64,000 nt of DNA from a virus (IMGVR_UViG_3300039286_000350:2984-66983), one strand, 5' to 3'; shown: positions 1,660-18,439, counted from the stretch's first letter. A program made the numbers and translations. Notes: generated from the sequence alone by a model not told the origin.

Positions 1660-1810
1660 AAATTCGGGTGAAGGCCACGTGATAGCTGGAATATAGCCAC
1701 CTTCACCCGGGGATTCCGTCTTTTTTGCTGGACACCTGCTAGATCTCACTACTCTACAGTAGCCACCAGGGCTTTTCTCGCAGGATTAAGCCGAGACCAC
1801 ATCCAGCAAA

Positions 1811-1883
1811 TGCTTCTCCCAGGATTCGAACCTGGACCGCGATCCTTTTCAGGGATCCGCTCTACCGTTGGAGCTAGAGAAGC
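1811..1883 (-). tRNA. tRNA-Phe(GAA)
   Basis: GATCC-CT GAA AA-GGATC. Confidence 0.93.
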
Positions 1884-2061
1884 AAGATGAAACCGCGAGG
1901 CCCACTCTAATGACATTTTCTGCACCGTCACAATGGACGAGCTTGCCTGAGTCAGCCATATTTGGGGCTCTGCCACTGGACTCCTCGAGGTAGCTACCCA
2001 GCGGGGCACTTTTGACCGTGAGCATTAGCCTAGGGCAGCACTCACGTCGTGGTCTCAGGGC

Positions 2062-2205
2062 TTATTTATGACTACCATCACGGATCTTATCCGCAACGAT
2101 GTCCAGCCCGACTGCATCGGCTACAGCAGCAGCTGCCTTAGCCGGGACGCCTTTGACGTTGATAATCGTCTTTCCGGACTCAGTTTTGAGAATTAGTGTG
2201 AACAT
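2062..2205 (-). CDS. Small hypothetical protein (47 aa, MFTLILKTESGKTIINVKGV...)
   Basis: ATG to TAA reading frame with purine-rich upstream sequence, inside the tRNA array; below the ORF-track cutoff. Confidence 0.55.
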   Translation of the reverse strand: MFTLILKTESGKTIINVKGVPAKAAAAVADAVGLDIVADKIRDGSHK

Positions 2206-2239
2206 GCTTCTTTATCGACCTCCGTCACAAGAAGCTTAG

Positions 2240-2312
2240 TGGAGAAGGACGGGATCGAACCGTCAACCTCCTGCTTGCAAGGCAGGTGCTCTTCCGATTG
2301 AGCTACTCCCCC
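2240..2312 (-). tRNA. tRNA-Ala(TGC)
   Basis: G3-U70; CCTGC-CT TGC AA-GCAGG. Confidence 0.94.
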
Positions 2313-2317
2313 ATTAA

Positions 2318-2381
2318 CCGGTGTTTTACCAATTAAACTACGATGCCGAAGCATCGACAGGACTTGAACCTGCATCTCCGG
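2318..2381 (-). ncRNA. Circularly permuted tRNA-like unit B (T arm before D arm; acceptor stem capped by UUCG)
   Basis: CCGG-AGAT-GCAGG TTCAAGT CCTGT-CGATGC TTCG GCATCG-TA-GTTT AATTGGTA AAAC-A-CCGG. Confidence 0.75.
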
Positions 2382-2384
2382 AGT

Positions 2385-2457
2385 TTCGGCGCTCTAGCCA
2401 GCTGAGCTACAGCAGCTACGTTGGCTGCTAGTGGGATTCGAACCCACGACCTCCGAA
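2385..2457 (-). ncRNA. Circularly permuted tRNA-like unit A
   Basis: TTCGG-AGGTC-GTGGG TTCGAAT CCCAC-TAGCAGC-[CAACGTA]-GCTGCTG-TA-GCTC AGCTGGCTA GAGC-G-CCGAA. Confidence 0.78.
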
Positions 2458-2467
2458 GTCGTTGAGG

Positions 2468-2556
2468 CGGAAGGCCGAGGAGTCGAACCCCCACCGGCGA
2501 TCGCCGGTGACCGGTTTTCAAGACCGGAGAGCAGACCAACCTGCTCTGGACCTTCC
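2468..2556 (-). tRNA. tRNA-Ser(TGA) with 8/4 acceptor/T-stem fold
   Basis: Acceptor GGAAGGTC/GGCCTTCC (8 bp); T stem GGGG/CCTC (4 bp); 6-bp D stem; long variable arm; loop CT TGA AA; G73. Confidence 0.85.
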
Positions 2557-2565
2557 GTGAAGTTT

Positions 2566-2644
2566 GTGGGAGTCGGGAATCGAACCCGAGCCACCCATTG
2601 CCTTATGCAAGGCGGGTATGCTACCAACGAACACCGCTTCCCAC
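2566..2644 (-). pseudogene. Aberrant tRNA-like element with expanded anticodon arm
   Basis: Good T arm TCGGG TTCGATT CCCGA and D arm; bulged acceptor; anticodon region CCCGCCTTGCATAAGGCAATGGG has no 7-nt loop. Confidence 0.55.
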
Positions 2645-2699
2645 GCCCGTACCACGTTGCAACGTGTCGCCCGCTAAGGCAGTTAGGGCTTTGGCCAAG

Positions 2700-2786
2700 C
2701 GGATGGAGTAGGATTCGAACCTACGGATCCAACAAAGGATCGGCGAGTTAGCAACCCGCTGCATTCGGCCTCTCTGCCATCCATCC
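2700..2786 (-). tRNA. tRNA-Ser(GCT)
   Basis: Canonical 7/5 fold, long variable arm; GCGGG-TT GCT AA-CTCGC. Confidence 0.93.
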
Positions 2787-2947
2787 GTGCACCTGCGTCC
2801 GTTCGGGCTCCGTGGGATATCCCTTGGTTCCTACTTGAGACGCAGGATCTACCTCATCAGCCTAGGGGTAAGGGTTCCCTAGGAGCATCCGTTCGCCGGG
2901 GCAGACTTACTATCTGCACTGATAAGAAGAGCTATCCTAGGTACTAG

Positions 2948-3032
2948 GCCCCCGCTCTACCATTGAGCTACACGCCGTGTAGGCGATCACCTTGGCCGGC
3001 GTGGCCGGGCTCGAACCGGCAACAGTCGAGGC
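2948..3032 (-). ncRNA. Circularly permuted tRNA-like unit C (Pro-type acceptor, encoded NCCA)
   Basis: GCCTC..GCCGG TTCGAGC CCGGC-CACGCCG-G-CCA-[15 nt]-CGGCGTG-TA-GCTC AATGGTA GAGC-G-GGGGC. Confidence 0.8.
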
Positions 3033-3084
3033 TGTTCCCCAGGATTTCAAGGAGGGCGTATCTAGAATCCGCCAGTCCCTAAAG

Positions 3085-3156
3085 CTGCACACCCAGGATT
3101 CGAACCTGGAACCGTCTCCTTAACAGGGAGCTGCACTGCCGTTGTGCTAGTGTGCA
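3085..3156 (-). tRNA. tRNA-Asn(GTT)
   Basis: U1-A72; loop CT GTT AA. Confidence 0.9.
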
Positions 3157-3278
3157 ATGTTCTGGGCACGGAGGAGGCCATTGGAGCCGCTGGCAAACGA
3201 GTCAGTACCTCTGTCCTAGCTGCATGAACGCATCACCAGCAGTGCCAACCTGTGGCCGTTCACTGGAGCCGCCCAGAG

Positions 3279-3595: not shown

Positions 3596-3718
3596 AAGTT
3601 TTCAGTGGACGCCCTTATGGTCGGGTCTGTTTGATGAAATGAACTTATCCCTTACCGCGACCACGCGAAGGGTCCACCGTTAAGAACTGGCCCAATCTAG
3701 GGAGGATCAGGGCCAGAG

Positions 3719-4106
3719 TGGAGGCGGTGGGAGTCGAACCCACGTGCACGGACCGGATTGCCATCAGAGTTCTAGCAGCTTGTCATCGTGGGATCAGAAC
3801 CAGGAGGGCTACGGTGACTACCCTCTCTGCCCTGGCTTACTACGCACAGGTGCACCACCCCGTTATTACGTCCGGGGGCAGACGTACATGTACCTCAATC
3901 GGTTCCCCACTTCTGTTGCCCCGTGTGAGGAGACGGCGCAGCAGCTGTTAGGCTACTGCGAGTGCGCCCGAGTTGGCGAAGGCCTCAGCCTCTGCCAGCC
4001 CGTCCGCAACGTATGCATCGCCTTGTATAGGCTTGAGCCTTTAGGTCTGCTCATACCGCTGCACTGATGGGTCTCCATTGACCATGTCGAAGCCAATTTC
4101 GCCCCC
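3719..4106 (-). ncRNA. ssrA: tmRNA; predicted tag (A)GDAYVADGLAEAEAFANSGALAVA at 3948-4022
   Basis: 5' GGGGGCGAAATTGGCTTCGAC; 3' GTGGGTTCGACTCCCACCGCCTCCA; G3-U70; internal reading frame ending LAVA-TAA. Confidence 0.93.
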
Positions 4107-6929: not shown

Positions 6930-8399
6930 CTAAACTCCTACCTTGGTTCCCCTGTTAGCTTCGAAGTCATCAAACACTTCATTTACCGACTGTCTGTCAC
7001 TATGCTCTTCCTCAAAAGACCGAAGGCTAGCAAACTTGGAAGCCCTAATCCTACCGATGTAATCCCGTCTAGAAGATAGCTTGGAGGCAACCTCAGCAGC
7101 AGTCAAAGACGTATAATCAGCAAGCATTAGGTGTGATGCCGCATCGGCACCTAAGTCATCTAGAGGCCACAACATCAAGTCCGCAAATTCCCTCAGAAGC
7201 GCTTCTGCCAGGGCTGCTGGATACACCGCAAACGGTAGTATACTGCCCAAGAAGGAGGCCCAACTCCAGTGGCTGATGAATAGAGGGGTCGGTTCAGGCA
7301 AGACAGCAGCAATGTTCTGTGATCCCCAGTCTTTCCATCCTAAAGCCTGAGACATTGTATACAATCTTATTTTTGACCCAACTGTCCAGACCAAAGCATA
7401 AAAGAAGGGGTCTGTGGACAAGGCGCCACCAAGTTCCCAAGTCGCCACAGTCGTGTATTCATCAGGTGTAAACTGCAACCCTTCGAATTCATCTATGGCG
7501 AAGAACAGACTTTCTCTCGTAGCAGTCGCTCCAGAGAAGATGGACCTGATTTCAAATGGGGTAAGAGTAGAAGCCTGAGCTACGCCGCAGAACGTTCGAG
7601 TTGTGCCTCGGGCACATGGTCCAGTATCAGAATTAGAAGCATTAGAGGCGCCAGACCAACCTGACTCTCCAGAAGCTAGCTGACTTGGATTAGGGAAATA
7701 AGTTCCGAGGGTCGAGGCTCTCTCGAACATCACCCCGGTGAACTGGAAGGTAACCGTAGTCGCTCCAGTCTGTTCAATGCATAAGCGCTGAGCTTCGAGG
7801 TTAGCCGCCGTCCAGGTTACATTCAGGCGTTTCCATTCTCCAACTGTGGTTGCATTCACACTTGCAGCCTGAACTTCACCATTGGTTGATTTCCTAATAA
7901 CCAATCGGGCACCCGCTCCGGTTGAGGCCGTAAGCCGAACAAACACAGAGGCCGTGTAAGTCCTACCAACAACGAGACCCTCACCACCAATAGGCAGTGC
8001 GAACATCACGCGGTCAGGGTTACCATTTCCAGATGCTTGAATCGCTGTCACCACACCAGCCAATTCAGCGGGGAGCACACCTTCTGGAGCAACTTTCGTT
8101 GGTCCGGATTCTAGACCACTCCCCGTCCAACCAGTCGTGTCATTGGCAGCTGTGGGATTCGTAACAAGATTGGTTCGCGTGCTCCAAGCGGTATCAATAT
8201 AATCGCTGTCACCATCAAAAGCAGCAGTGGCCAGTCCAGGGGTAATCCCAACGTCAAGAGCGGCGTCACCTTTCAGCGAGGCATCTGCAACTGTTACGCT
8301 ACCCTGATTTTTCAGTGAGCTCGACACAGTCGAGGGGAGCAGCGCGTAAAGAGGAGAGGCGCCAAGTAACGCAGATGTTAGAAGAGTTGGGTTCCTCAC
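6930..8399 (-). CDS. LamG/concanavalin-like protein with inserted carbohydrate-binding domain
   Basis: AFDGDSDYI and FAVYPAAL LamG-like motifs; NLVTNP..GW CBM-like motif. Confidence 0.65.
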   Translation of the reverse strand: MRNPTLLTSALLGASPLYALLPSTVSSSLKNQGSVTVADASLKGDAALDVGITPGLATAAFDGDSDYIDTAWSTRTNLVTNPTAANDTTGWTGSGLESGPTKVAPEGVLPAELAGVVTAIQASGNGNPDRVMFALPIGGEGLVVGRTYTASVFVRLTASTGAGARLVIRKSTNGEVQAASVNATTVGEWKRLNVTWTAANLEAQRLCIEQTGATTVTFQFTGVMFERASTLGTYFPNPSQLASGESGWSGASNASNSDTGPCARGTTRTFCGVAQASTLTPFEIRSIFSGATATRESLFFAIDEFEGLQFTPDEYTTVATWELGGALSTDPFFYALVWTVGSKIRLYTMSQALGWKDWGSQNIAAVLPEPTPLFISHWSWASFLGSILPFAVYPAALAEALLREFADLMLWPLDDLGADAASHLMLADYTSLTAAEVASKLSSRRDYIGRIRASKFASLRSFEEEHSDRQSVNEVFDDFEANRGTKVGV

Positions 8400-18092: not shown

Positions 18093-18439
18093 GAACTTTG
18101 TATCCCTATGACCTTGGCTGCTGCAATCATACCACGAGCTGTAGGCGGTATGATGACAGGGAAGCCCTCATTGTGGAGGATGGCAGAGGCTACATTGCAG
18201 ACCCATTCGACCTGGATCTCACGGTAGCGCTGCTTCCAGTAGCCATCTGATTCTTTCGCTTCCTTAGTTGCGTCATGTTCAGCAGCCAGTAGTTCTCGTA
18301 GGCCCATAGCTGTGAGACCACGACAGGCGTTGAAGCCATCAATGGACCCCTCAAGCTTGTCGGAGCCCTCCTTGAAGTCTTTGACGACAGAGCGGAGGCC
18401 CATCTCAATGATCTGTTCGAGGGCATCTTCTAGATTCAT
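18089..18439 (-). CDS. Hypothetical protein
   Basis: ATGA overlap. Confidence 0.6.
   Translation of the reverse strand: MNLEDALEQIIEMGLRSVVKDFKEGSDKLEGSIDGFNACRGLTAMGLRELLAAEHDATKEAKESDGYWKQRYREIQVEWVCNVASAILHNEGFPVIIPPTARGMIAAAKVIGIQSS

What the first reader, a model, noticed from the sequence alone, without database searches (positions are those of the whole stretch)
2318..2457. Tandem pair of circularly permuted, anticodon-less tRNA mimics
Seen: two units, each ordered 3' half then 5' half (variable region, T arm, acceptor 3' strand, short loop, acceptor 5' strand, D arm), with RNA ends where the anticodon loop should be. Acceptor strands pair within each unit (TAGCAGC/GCTGCTG; CGATGC/GCATCG) and so do the anticodon-stem remnants (TTCGG/CCGAA; CCGG/CCGG), which argues against chance fragments. 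Unit B is capped by a C(UUCG)G tetraloop, and the units are 3 nt apart. Established: permuted tRNA genes occur in Cyanidioschyzon and some archaea, and bacterial YrlA Y RNAs have a closed acceptor arm with D and T arms. These units lack an obvious long Ro60-binding stem and no Ro60 gene is in the window. Inference: a possibly undescribed class of phage tRNA-elbow decoys with no anticodon loop to cleave, for example against tRNA-targeting defence or tRNA-binding proteins.
Basis: partly seen in the sequence, partly recalled or inferred. Interest (0 to 1): 0.85.

Follow-up and report, generated by a model that had tools for sequence, protein, structure and literature searches.

The report
Phage tRNA-shaped Y-like RNAs, no Ro60
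A soil phage's tRNA gene cluster holds three small RNAs built like tRNAs turned inside out with no anticodon loop; they belong to the known class of Y-RNA-like (YrlA-type) tRNA mimics, but the phage's complete 155-kb genome has no gene for the Ro60-type protein that usually partners such RNAs.

Summary
On the minus strand, units A (2385-2457) and B (2318-2381) each run closing strand, variable loop, T arm, closed acceptor hairpin, D arm, closing strand. Each unit is a self-consistent tRNA body minus the anticodon loop. ARAGORN calls all three re-permuted units as tRNAs and none of six chimeras. The 15:48 tertiary pair fits within each unit.

This is the layout of the tRNA-like domain of YrlA-type Y RNAs, known in bacteria and phages since 2014. 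This scan has met the class many times on other DNA. A, B and C score 33-40 bits against Rfam YrlA, the same range as modules I found beside Ro60-type genes in other phages.

Two things are unusual. The rebuilt 154,963-bp genome has no Ro60-type gene (TROVE or DUF2828/DUF7788). A and B are minimal, with no long stem and no Ro60 motif, and sit almost flush between two tRNAs.

Unit C has a positional orthologue in the closest relative: 15 compensatory pair changes, none broken, and a conserved internal loop. A and B are absent from two syntenic relatives. No intact tRNA sits in that slot in the closest one, and none was called there in the second.

Verdict: a new variant of a known kind, of moderate interest.

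The parts
2385..2457 (-). Unit A, a permuted anticodon-less tRNA body. Parts: closing strand 2453-2457, variable loop 2448-2452, T arm 2431-2447, acceptor 3' strand 2424-2430, 7-nt loop 2417-2423, acceptor 5' strand 2410-2416, U8-A9 2408-2409, D arm 2391-2407, G26 2390, closing strand 2385-2389.
   Evidence: Read directly. Rfam YrlA 39.5 bits over model positions 18-91. The re-permuted form is called a tRNA. G15:C48 pair.
2318..2381 (-). Unit B, a permuted anticodon-less tRNA body. Parts: closing strand 2378-2381, variable loop 2374-2377, T arm 2357-2373, 6-bp acceptor 2351-2356 / 2341-2346 capped by the UUCG tetraloop 2347-2350, U8-A9 2339-2340, D arm 2323-2338, A26 2322, closing strand 2318-2321.
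   Evidence: Rfam YrlA 33.4 bits. The re-permuted form is called a tRNA. A15:U48 pair.
2934..3045 (-). Unit C, a permuted tRNA body on a long interrupted stem. Parts: outer stem 5' strand and GAACA loop 3033-3045, closing strand 3028-3032, variable loop 3021-3027, T arm 3004-3020, acceptor 3' strand 2997-3003, G-CCA 2993-2996, 15-nt spacer 2978-2992, acceptor 5' strand 2971-2977, D arm 2954-2968, closing strand 2948-2952, CUAGUA loop and outer stem 3' strand 2934-2947.
   Evidence: Rfam YrlA 36.3 bits. The acceptor stem is identical to that of tRNA-Pro(UGG). A positional orthologue in relative L188 shows 15 compensatory changes, 0 broken pairs and conserved internal loops.
2469..2556 (-). tRNA-Ser(UGA) directly upstream of unit A. 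Processing of its 3' end would free the 5' side of the A-B RNA (inferred).
   Evidence: Rfam tRNA-Sec model 54.3 bits, anticodon loop CUUGAAA. ARAGORN calls the orthologue in the relative as tRNA-Ser(tga).
2239..2312 (-). tRNA-Ala(UGC), 5 nt downstream of unit B. RNase P cleavage at its 5' end would free the 3' side of the A-B RNA (inferred).
   Evidence: ARAGORN and Rfam, 70.5 bits.

Best explanation
A, B and C are non-decoding tRNA mimics of the YrlA / Y-RNA-like kind. Each is a complete tRNA body (acceptor stem, D arm, T arm, variable loop, anticodon-stem remnant). The acceptor end is closed by a loop, and the RNA ends lie where the anticodon loop would be.

Shown:
- The fold elements are present.
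- The two halves of each unit fit each other.
- The class recurs in many phages, with covariation.
- Unit C is conserved in a relative.
- The complete genome has no Ro60-type gene.

Inferred:
- The units are co-transcribed with the tRNA operon. The enzymes that mature the flanking tRNAs (RNase P, 3' processing) cut them free.
- They fold into the tRNA L-shape and are handled by host tRNA enzymes.
- C (7-bp acceptor, encoded G-CCA, spacer) and perhaps A (7-bp acceptor) are nicked by RNase P and end in CCA, as shown for Mycobacterium smegmatis YrlA. B (6 bp, UUCG cap) stays closed.
- They act by offering a tRNA elbow and acceptor to a host protein without entering translation.
- C also recruits a partner through its stem and its conserved internal loop (5' GAACA, 3' YUAGUA).
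- Because the phage has no Ro60-type gene, the partner is host-encoded. I put host Rsr/Ro60 with PNPase at about one in three. Another tRNA-binding protein is somewhat more likely.
For: - Anatomy.
- Frequency above chance.
- Self-consistency of each unit's halves.
- YrlA is the best non-tRNA Rfam match for all three units (39.5, 36.3 and 33.4 bits). Modules 0.5-1.5 kb from TROVE genes in other phages score 35.8-49.9 bits.
- In an unselected pattern scan, 11 of 67 loci had 7/7 acceptor pairing, against about 0.07 expected.
- The Levitt pair covaries in 20 of 20 modules. Chen et al. single this feature out for YrlA.
- Four of about 22 modules (winC, L036a, L091, L015) encode N-CCA right after the acceptor 3' strand, against about 0.3 expected. 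[quoted passage not shown]
- C against its orthologue C': 28 pairs, of which 15 changed on both sides, 4 on one side, 9 are unchanged and 0 are broken. The internal loops are conserved.
- A metatranscriptome from another study holds identical pieces of the RNA island only (2458-2713 and the tmRNA body) and nothing from the adjacent coding region. The first piece ends 1 nt before A's closing helix.
Against: - None of the three units reaches Rfam's YrlA threshold of 69 bits.
- A and C lack the GNCGAAN0-1G motif. B has only GCCGAAAC upstream. The motif occurs at chance frequency in the island.
- A and B have no long 5'/3' stem.
- The complete genome has no Ro60-type gene, whereas 8 of 15 other module-bearing viral records have one.
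- A and B are missing from two syntenic relatives, so they are recent or dispensable.
- There is no direct evidence that A, B or C exist as discrete RNAs, or that anything binds them.
- Run X1 covers the whole genome at flat depth, so it says nothing about expression.
Confidence: 0.6

Rival explanations
1. A and B (and perhaps C) form a class of their own: Ro60-independent tRNA-elbow or acceptor decoys. They soak up a host defence protein or tRNA-targeting toxin, and share only the fold with Y RNAs.
For: - The complete 154,963-bp genome has no TROVE, DUF2828, DUF7788 or vWA gene.
- A and B lack the stem and the Ro60 motif.
- A complete 46-kb phage genome (G006, locus L044) carries a similar short-stemmed module between tRNAs and also has no Ro60-type gene.
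- The modules sit in a tRNA array. On my own knowledge, such arrays have been linked to counter-defence.
Against: - Without an anticodon loop they cannot mimic the substrate of anticodon nucleases.
- Their core cannot be told apart from Ro60-linked modules by score or by conserved positions.
- A and B are absent from the two closest syntenic arrays.
- No candidate target is known, and a host Ro60 is not excluded.
Confidence: 0.25
2. A and B are evolutionary debris: leftovers of tandem duplications and deletions among tRNA genes, transcribed at most as passengers. Only C is functional.
For: - A and B are not conserved in two syntenic relatives.
- tRNA arrays rearrange often.
- Rfam can read a weak chimeric tRNA across the A/B junction.
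Against: - Three deletions, each exactly at an anticodon loop, would be needed.
- All helices are perfect: 7/7 and 6/6 acceptor pairs, T and D stems, closing helices.
- The Levitt pair matches within each unit.
- B's acceptor is capped by a UUCG tetraloop.
- No half resembles any array tRNA beyond the generic consensus.
- The same minimal layout recurs in unrelated phages (L044, L064).
Confidence: 0.1
3. True circularly permuted tRNA genes, as in Cyanidioschyzon or Thermofilum. The transcripts would be circularised and re-cut to give decoding tRNAs.
For: The gene order is 3' half then 5' half. Unit C encodes G-CCA plus a spacer, like permuted tRNA genes.
Against: - No anticodon-loop nucleotides exist. 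A and B are 3 nt apart, and the ends abut neighbouring tRNAs.
- The genome has no RtcB. Its only ligase-type gene is a 645-aa ATP-dependent DNA ligase (DNA_ligase_A_M 94 bits) with a weaker secondary RNA_ligase-domain hit of 32.8 bits. No dedicated RNA ligase was found.
- The array together with tRNA-Cys already covers all 20 amino acids.
Confidence: 0.02

Closest known systems
YrlA, the tRNA-like Y RNA of bacteria and mycobacteriophages (Rfam RF02553; Chen et al. 2014, PMC4201824)
   Same: - Order (V)-T arm-closed acceptor-like stem-D arm, with the RNA ends on the anticodon side.
- Conserved tRNA tertiary positions and the covarying 15:48 pair.
- Tandem copies.
- For unit C, a 7-bp acceptor with CCA, like M. 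smegmatis YrlA, which RNase P cuts and which gains CCA.
   Different: - No Ro60 gene within 4 kb, or anywhere in the genome.
- No GNCGAAN0-1G motif.
- A and B have no V arm and no long stem.
- Scores are below Rfam's threshold.
- The units are embedded almost flush between tRNAs.
Phage Ro60-type proteins with Y-like RNAs: Thermus phage phiLo Ro60 with Yrl1/Yrl2 (PMC12135203), and Bas63 gp130, a Ro60-like counter to the ppl defence that sits upstream of tRNA genes (PMC11482910)
   Same: Small structured RNAs in or beside a phage tRNA cluster, often in tandem. In my IMG/VR sample the same module lies beside TROVE or DUF2828/DUF7788 genes.
   Different: This phage has no such protein. The phiLo Yrls are described as stem-bulge-stem RNAs with a CGAA motif, which is not found here.
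   Same: The 3' half lies upstream of the 5' half, and the acceptor strands are joined by a spacer.
   Different: Those genes keep the whole anticodon loop and mature into decoding tRNAs through a splicing endonuclease and a ligase. Here the loop is absent and no such enzymes are encoded.
Tandem double tRNA-mimic RNA of about 370 nt next to a DUF7873 protein
   Same: Two permuted tRNA-like modules in tandem without Ro60, sometimes inside phage tRNA clusters.
   Different: A plus B span only 140 nt between two tRNAs. No DUF7873 hit appeared among the ORFs scanned or in the gene tables. The scan's sequence look-up found no look-alike.

Membership tests
YrlA (Rfam RF02553; Chen et al. 2014) | tRNA-like domain in the order T arm, closed acceptor-like stem, D arm, with the ends on the anticodon side | tested here: met
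   Read directly for A, B and C. The re-permuted units are called tRNAs by ARAGORN.
YrlA (Rfam RF02553; Chen et al. 2014) | tRNA tertiary positions, including a covarying 15:48 Levitt pair | tested here: met
   A has G:C, B has A:U, C has A:U. The pair covaries in 20 of 20 modules across phages.
YrlA (Rfam RF02553; Chen et al. 2014) | Score at or above Rfam's gathering threshold (69 bits) | tested here: not met
   A 39.5, C 36.3 and B 33.4 bits. Modules beside TROVE genes in other phages also fail, at 35.8-49.9 bits, so the threshold does not discriminate here.
YrlA (Rfam RF02553; Chen et al. 2014) | GNCGAAN0-1G motif near the 5' end (the putative Ro60 site) | tested here: not met
   Absent upstream of A and C. 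B has GCCGAAAC, which lacks the final G. Across the island there are 6 matches against 4.8 expected.
YrlA (Rfam RF02553; Chen et al. 2014) | Long stem formed by the 5' and 3' ends | tested here: inconclusive
   C has an 8-bp outer stem, an internal loop and a 5-bp helix, all covarying with the relative. A and B have only 5-bp and 4-bp closing helices.
YrlA (Rfam RF02553; Chen et al. 2014) | Encoded within about 4 kb of a Ro60 (TROVE) gene on the same strand | tested here: not met
   - No TROVE, DUF2828, DUF7788 or VWA_2 in the 108-kb record.
- None in the gene tables of the other 47 kb.
- No hit of two home-made HMMs on the 602 ORFs of the 154,963-bp genome. The positive control worked.
YrlA (Rfam RF02553; Chen et al. 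2014) | Bound by Rsr/Ro60 in vivo | not testable with these tools
   Needs immunoprecipitation or a gel-shift assay. The host is unknown. An Rpf-like domain hints at Actinobacteria.
Circularly permuted tRNA genes | A full tRNA sequence, anticodon loop included, is recoverable after joining the ends | tested here: not met
   No loop nucleotides exist. There are 3 nt between A and B, 10 nt to tRNA-Ser and 5 nt to tRNA-Ala.
Circularly permuted tRNA genes | Machinery for circularisation (splicing endonuclease, RtcB-type ligase) | tested here: not met
   No RtcB in the record or in the gene tables of the remaining 47 kb. The only ligase-type gene is an ATP-dependent DNA ligase with a secondary RNA_ligase-domain hit of 32.8 bits. 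No splicing-endonuclease search was run.
Two-piece (permuted) tmRNA | Match to the permuted tmRNA model, with a tag reading frame | tested here: not met
   tmRNA_permuted scores 13.4 bits against a threshold of 47. The phage has an ordinary one-piece tmRNA at 3716-4106.
DUF7873-linked double tRNA-mimic RNA (earlier notes of this scan) | An RNA of about 370 nt encoded next to a DUF7873 protein of about 245 aa | tested here: not met
   No DUF7873 hit among about 55 ORFs scanned with Pfam or in the precomputed gene tables. A plus B span 140 nt. Caveat: I had neither the accession nor a positive control for this family.

The most novel reading that the evidence does not exclude
Some phages carry 'orphan' minimal tRNA bodies that work without any Ro60-type protein. 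They have no anticodon loop, no V arm, no long stem and no Ro60 motif. They would be cut out of tRNA operons by the tRNA-processing enzymes, and would act as sponges or adaptors for a host tRNA-binding factor, for instance an acceptor-end-targeting toxin, a tRNA-modifying or tRNA-processing enzyme, or an RNA-decay enzyme. That would make the YrlA-type tRNA module a free-standing functional unit that phages deploy on its own.
Probability: 0.25. Interest if true: 0.7.

Novelty: new variant of a known kind. Interest (0 to 1): 0.45.

Why it matters
Y-RNA-like tRNA mimics have been sought almost only next to Ro60 genes. Chen et al. 2014 searched only genomes that encode a TROVE protein. Here three such modules sit in a complete phage genome with no Ro60-type gene, and two of them are stripped to the bare tRNA body.

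If they are expressed and bind a host factor, the tRNA-like module has a function of its own. It would then be testable which host protein a phage targets with a tRNA look-alike that cannot be decoded or cut in the anticodon loop.

There are also practical points:
- Rfam's YrlA threshold misses the phage members of this class.
- Pfam TROVE alone misses the DUF2828/DUF7788 branch of Ro60-type proteins.
- Gene finders can misread such modules. Here Rfam's tRNA model called a chimeric tRNA at 31 bits across the A/B junction.

Tried and rejected
- **Known phages.** Megablast of 1800-3200 and tblastn of one protein against GenBank phages gave no match.
- **IMG/VR relatives by protein.** The head-of-array protein and DnaB found none. 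Relatives came only from the large protein collection.
- **Parent contig.** One exact-pattern scan of the metagenome collection found nothing. Whole-record search does not cover Logan contigs. I therefore walked the 60.6-kb contig gene by gene.
- **Head-of-array protein as Ro60.** The 489-aa protein (6930-8399) is not a divergent Ro60: no PHROG or PDB match, hhalign probability 0.1% against the phage TROVE profile, and the protein atlas places it with ConA-like lectin / Laminin_G proteins.
- **RNA enzymes.** No RtcB, CCA-adding enzyme or VWA_2. The one DNA ligase has only a weak RNA-ligase domain hit.
- **Handle motifs.** UCAGCA and GNCGAAN0-1G occur at chance frequency in the island.
- **Alignment and model.** The MAFFT alignment of modules (A1) misaligns the acceptor hairpins, so I scored the structure directly. 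I did not build a covariance model of my own, because it would restate the criteria used to find the modules.
- **Alternative fold.** The MFE fold pairs CUUCGGAG with CUCCGGAG across unit A. I rejected it in favour of the tRNA-like fold, because it destroys the D arm and the re-permuted unit is a canonical cloverleaf.
- **Expression.** Run X1 covers the genome at flat depth and may be the source sample. It is uninformative.
- **Recent rearrangement.** Derivation from neighbouring tRNAs is rejected: no half resembles an array tRNA beyond consensus, except that C's acceptor equals that of tRNA-Pro.

Full report
**What is there**

The window lies in an IMG/VR viral record of 108,108 bp. Its first 6.2 kb are part of a 9-kb minus-strand array of 29 tRNAs and a tmRNA.

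- Unit A (2385-2457): closing helix UUCGG/CCGAA, variable loop AGGUC, a canonical T arm, a 7-bp acceptor stem closed by a 7-nt loop, U8-A9, a canonical D arm and G26.
- Unit B (2318-2381): closing helix CCGG/CCGG, a T arm, a 6-bp acceptor capped by UUCG, and a D arm.
- They are 3 nt apart. They lie 10 nt after tRNA-Ser(UGA) and 5 nt before tRNA-Ala.

- Its 7-bp acceptor is identical to that of the phage's tRNA-Pro.
- The acceptor 3' strand is followed by G-CCA and a 15-nt spacer.
- The flanks form a long interrupted stem.

**Is it more than chance?**

- A strict detector (T arm, fully paired acceptor hairpin, D arm) finds three modules in the real genome. It finds 0.15 in shuffled genomes, and 0.085 when every real T arm is kept and the sequence after it is shuffled.
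- I joined each 5' half to each 3' half through a neutral 7-nt loop. ARAGORN calls all three self-combinations as tRNAs and none of the six cross-combinations.
- The tertiary 15:48 pair fits within each unit: G:C in A, A:U in B and C.
- Rfam's weak 'tRNA' at 2349-2416 joins A's 5' half to B's 3' half. Its acceptor strands mismatch, and it puts G15 opposite U48.
- No half resembles an array tRNA beyond the generic consensus. The units are therefore not a recent rearrangement of their neighbours.

**What class is it?**

The best non-tRNA Rfam match for all three units is YrlA, at 39.5, 36.3 and 33.4 bits against a threshold of 69.

Chen et al. 2014 (PMC4201824) define YrlA by three things: a tRNA-like domain in this same order, a GNCGAAN0-1G motif near the 5' end, and a position within about 4 kb of a Ro60 (TROVE) gene. 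They found it in 254 bacteria and 22 phages. They also showed that M. smegmatis YrlA, which has a 7-bp acceptor, is cut by RNase P and receives CCA.

A pattern scan of IMG/VR that did not select for pairing returned 67 loci. Eleven of them (nine distinct) have 7/7 acceptor pairing, against about 0.07 expected, and all of these lie in gaps between called tRNAs. A general detector found about 20 distinct modules, often in tandem pairs. In all 20 the 15:48 pair covaries.

Four of about 22 modules (winC, L036a, L091, L015) encode N-CCA right after the acceptor 3' strand, against about 0.3 expected.

Modules in L070, L046 and L063 lie 0.5-1.5 kb from a TROVE ORF on the same strand. The TROVE-linked modules, including L036 whose distance was not determined, score only 35.8-49.9 bits against Rfam YrlA. 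So Rfam's threshold does not separate A, B and C from Ro60-linked phage modules.

**The Ro60 question**

Earlier notes of this scan pointed to a divergent Ro60-like family in Felix O1-type phages. I checked the cited preprint. Bas63 gp130 is structurally Ro60-like, counters the ppl defence, and sits upstream of tRNA genes.

In my sample the 'TROVE-negative' record of L015 has a 483-aa DUF2828+DUF7788 protein directly upstream of its module. The same family occurs in G011, G012 and G014. A TROVE-type HMM that I built detects three of four of these proteins, so the two families belong together.

The tally is that 8 of 15 other module-bearing records have a Ro60-type gene. Most of the rest are small fragments. 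One complete 46-kb genome (G006, locus L044) has none, and its module is short-stemmed and wedged between tRNAs like unit A.

**This phage's complete genome**

The IMG/VR record is incomplete. The identical DnaB is on record on a 154,964-bp contig. I walked a 60.6-kb contig of the same phage. Joined to the record, it gives 154,963 bp.
- No TROVE, DUF2828, DUF7788, VWA_2, RtcB or CCA-adding enzyme was found. This holds for six-frame family searches of the record and for the precomputed gene tables of the other 47 kb.
- Neither home-made HMM hits any of the 602 ORFs, with best E values of 0.3-0.9.
- The protein at the head of the array is a ConA-like lectin, not Ro60-like.
- The whole genome has exactly three modules.
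- An Rpf-type transglycosylase-like domain hints at an actinobacterial host. That host association is my own knowledge and was not tested.

**Relatives**

The closest relative is L188 (DnaB 69% identical, on a 155.6-kb contig). Its array has nearly the same tRNA order, with one extra tRNA-Val.
- In the slot of unit C it has a module whose outer stem, closing helix, T stem and acceptor stem all differ in sequence yet pair. Of 28 pairs, 15 changed on both sides, 4 on one side, 9 are unchanged and none is broken.
- The internal-loop sequences are conserved: GAACA 5/5 and YUAGUA 5/6. The register of the outer stems was chosen by me.
- In the slot of A and B it has a 211-nt sequence with no T arm and no tRNA.

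A second relative, L198 (55% identical), has a stem-closed RNA with T-arm-like hairpins in C's slot. It has no A or B, and ARAGORN calls no tRNA in the Ser-to-Ala slot.

C is therefore under selection as a structured RNA with a conserved loop that could bind a protein. A and B are specific to this phage.

**Expression**

Two soil metatranscriptome runs hold the stretch.
- X1 covers the whole genome at flat depth and is uninformative.
- X2, from another study, holds only two identical pieces, both inside the RNA island (2458-2713 and the tmRNA body). It holds nothing from the adjacent coding region. The first piece ends 1 nt before A's closing helix.

This is weak support for stable RNA from the island. 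It is not evidence for A, B or C themselves.

**Reading**

The units are YrlA-type tRNA mimics, a known kind.

Three features are new here:
- The complete genome has no Ro60-type gene.
- A and B have a minimal form.
- Three modules with three kinds of acceptor closure sit in one array.

The mechanism is inferred:
- The units are released by the processing of the flanking tRNAs and fold into an L-shape.
- C (and perhaps A) is nicked by RNase P and ends in CCA.
- They engage a host protein.
- Host Rsr/Ro60 is possible. However, the usual motif is absent, so I rate another partner as somewhat more likely.

The scan has found this class before on other DNA, including Ro60-less tandem modules linked to a DUF7873 protein. 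I found no DUF7873 here.

Noticed in passing
window 2566-2640 (-); relative L188 about 18268-18342 (+): A tRNA-like RNA in normal order (acceptor GUGGGA.../...UCCCAC, D arm, T arm). In place of the anticodon arm it has a longer hairpin with no 7-nt anticodon loop. ARAGORN and Rfam tRNA miss it. It is conserved in the relative, and the identical X2 metatranscriptome contig covers it. The real tRNA-Cys(GCA) lies elsewhere. This is a second kind of anticodon-less tRNA mimic in the same array.
   Followed up: partly
window 2787-2930 (-): A stem-closed spacer RNA directly after unit C. A roughly 12-bp outer stem encloses two hairpins and a loop carrying GGCGAACG, which matches GNCGAANG. The layout resembles Y RNA / YrlB, but the motif is at chance frequency in the island.
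   Followed up: partly
window 2469-2556 (-): tRNA-Ser(UGA), hit by Rfam's tRNA-Sec model at 54 bits and missed by ARAGORN here. ARAGORN calls its orthologue in the relative as tRNA-Ser(tga).
   Followed up: partly
whole record G000; loci L191, L193-L196: The IMG/VR record (108 kb, labelled 'provirus', 87% complete) is about 70% of a 154,963-bp genome with its own replisome. No host genes or integrase were seen among the ORFs scanned, so the provirus label looks doubtful. The missing 47 kb carries a primase, an endolysin-type peptidase, an Rpf-like transglycosylase, NAMPT, NUDIX, an IF-2B-like gene, a second PolA-like gene and tRNA-Cys.
   Followed up: yes
L015:5638-7089 (-); G011:16044-17483; L186; L187: Proteins of about 480-515 aa with DUF2828+DUF7788 sit beside permuted tRNA-like modules in several phages (directly upstream in L015). 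A TROVE-type HMM detects them, so they form a divergent Ro60-type branch that PF05731 alone misses. Their modules share a 5' UCAGCA element about 33 nt upstream of the T arm.
   Followed up: partly
run X2, record 9, laid at window 2389-2453: A 211-nt soil metatranscriptome contig at depth 37 matches only A's D arm and T arm, with a different 15-nt hairpin between them. It is another permuted module from some other organism, present as RNA.
   Followed up: no
L198:15086-15198 (+): In a more distant relative, the slot of unit C holds a stem-closed RNA (9-bp outer stem) with two T-arm-like hairpins and no D arm. It may be a degenerate or YrlB-like cousin of the module.
   Followed up: no
L197:18252-19820 (+): A more distant relative (DnaB 55% identical), with different synteny, encodes a CCA-adding enzyme (PolyA_pol plus HD). 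This phage has none.
   Followed up: no
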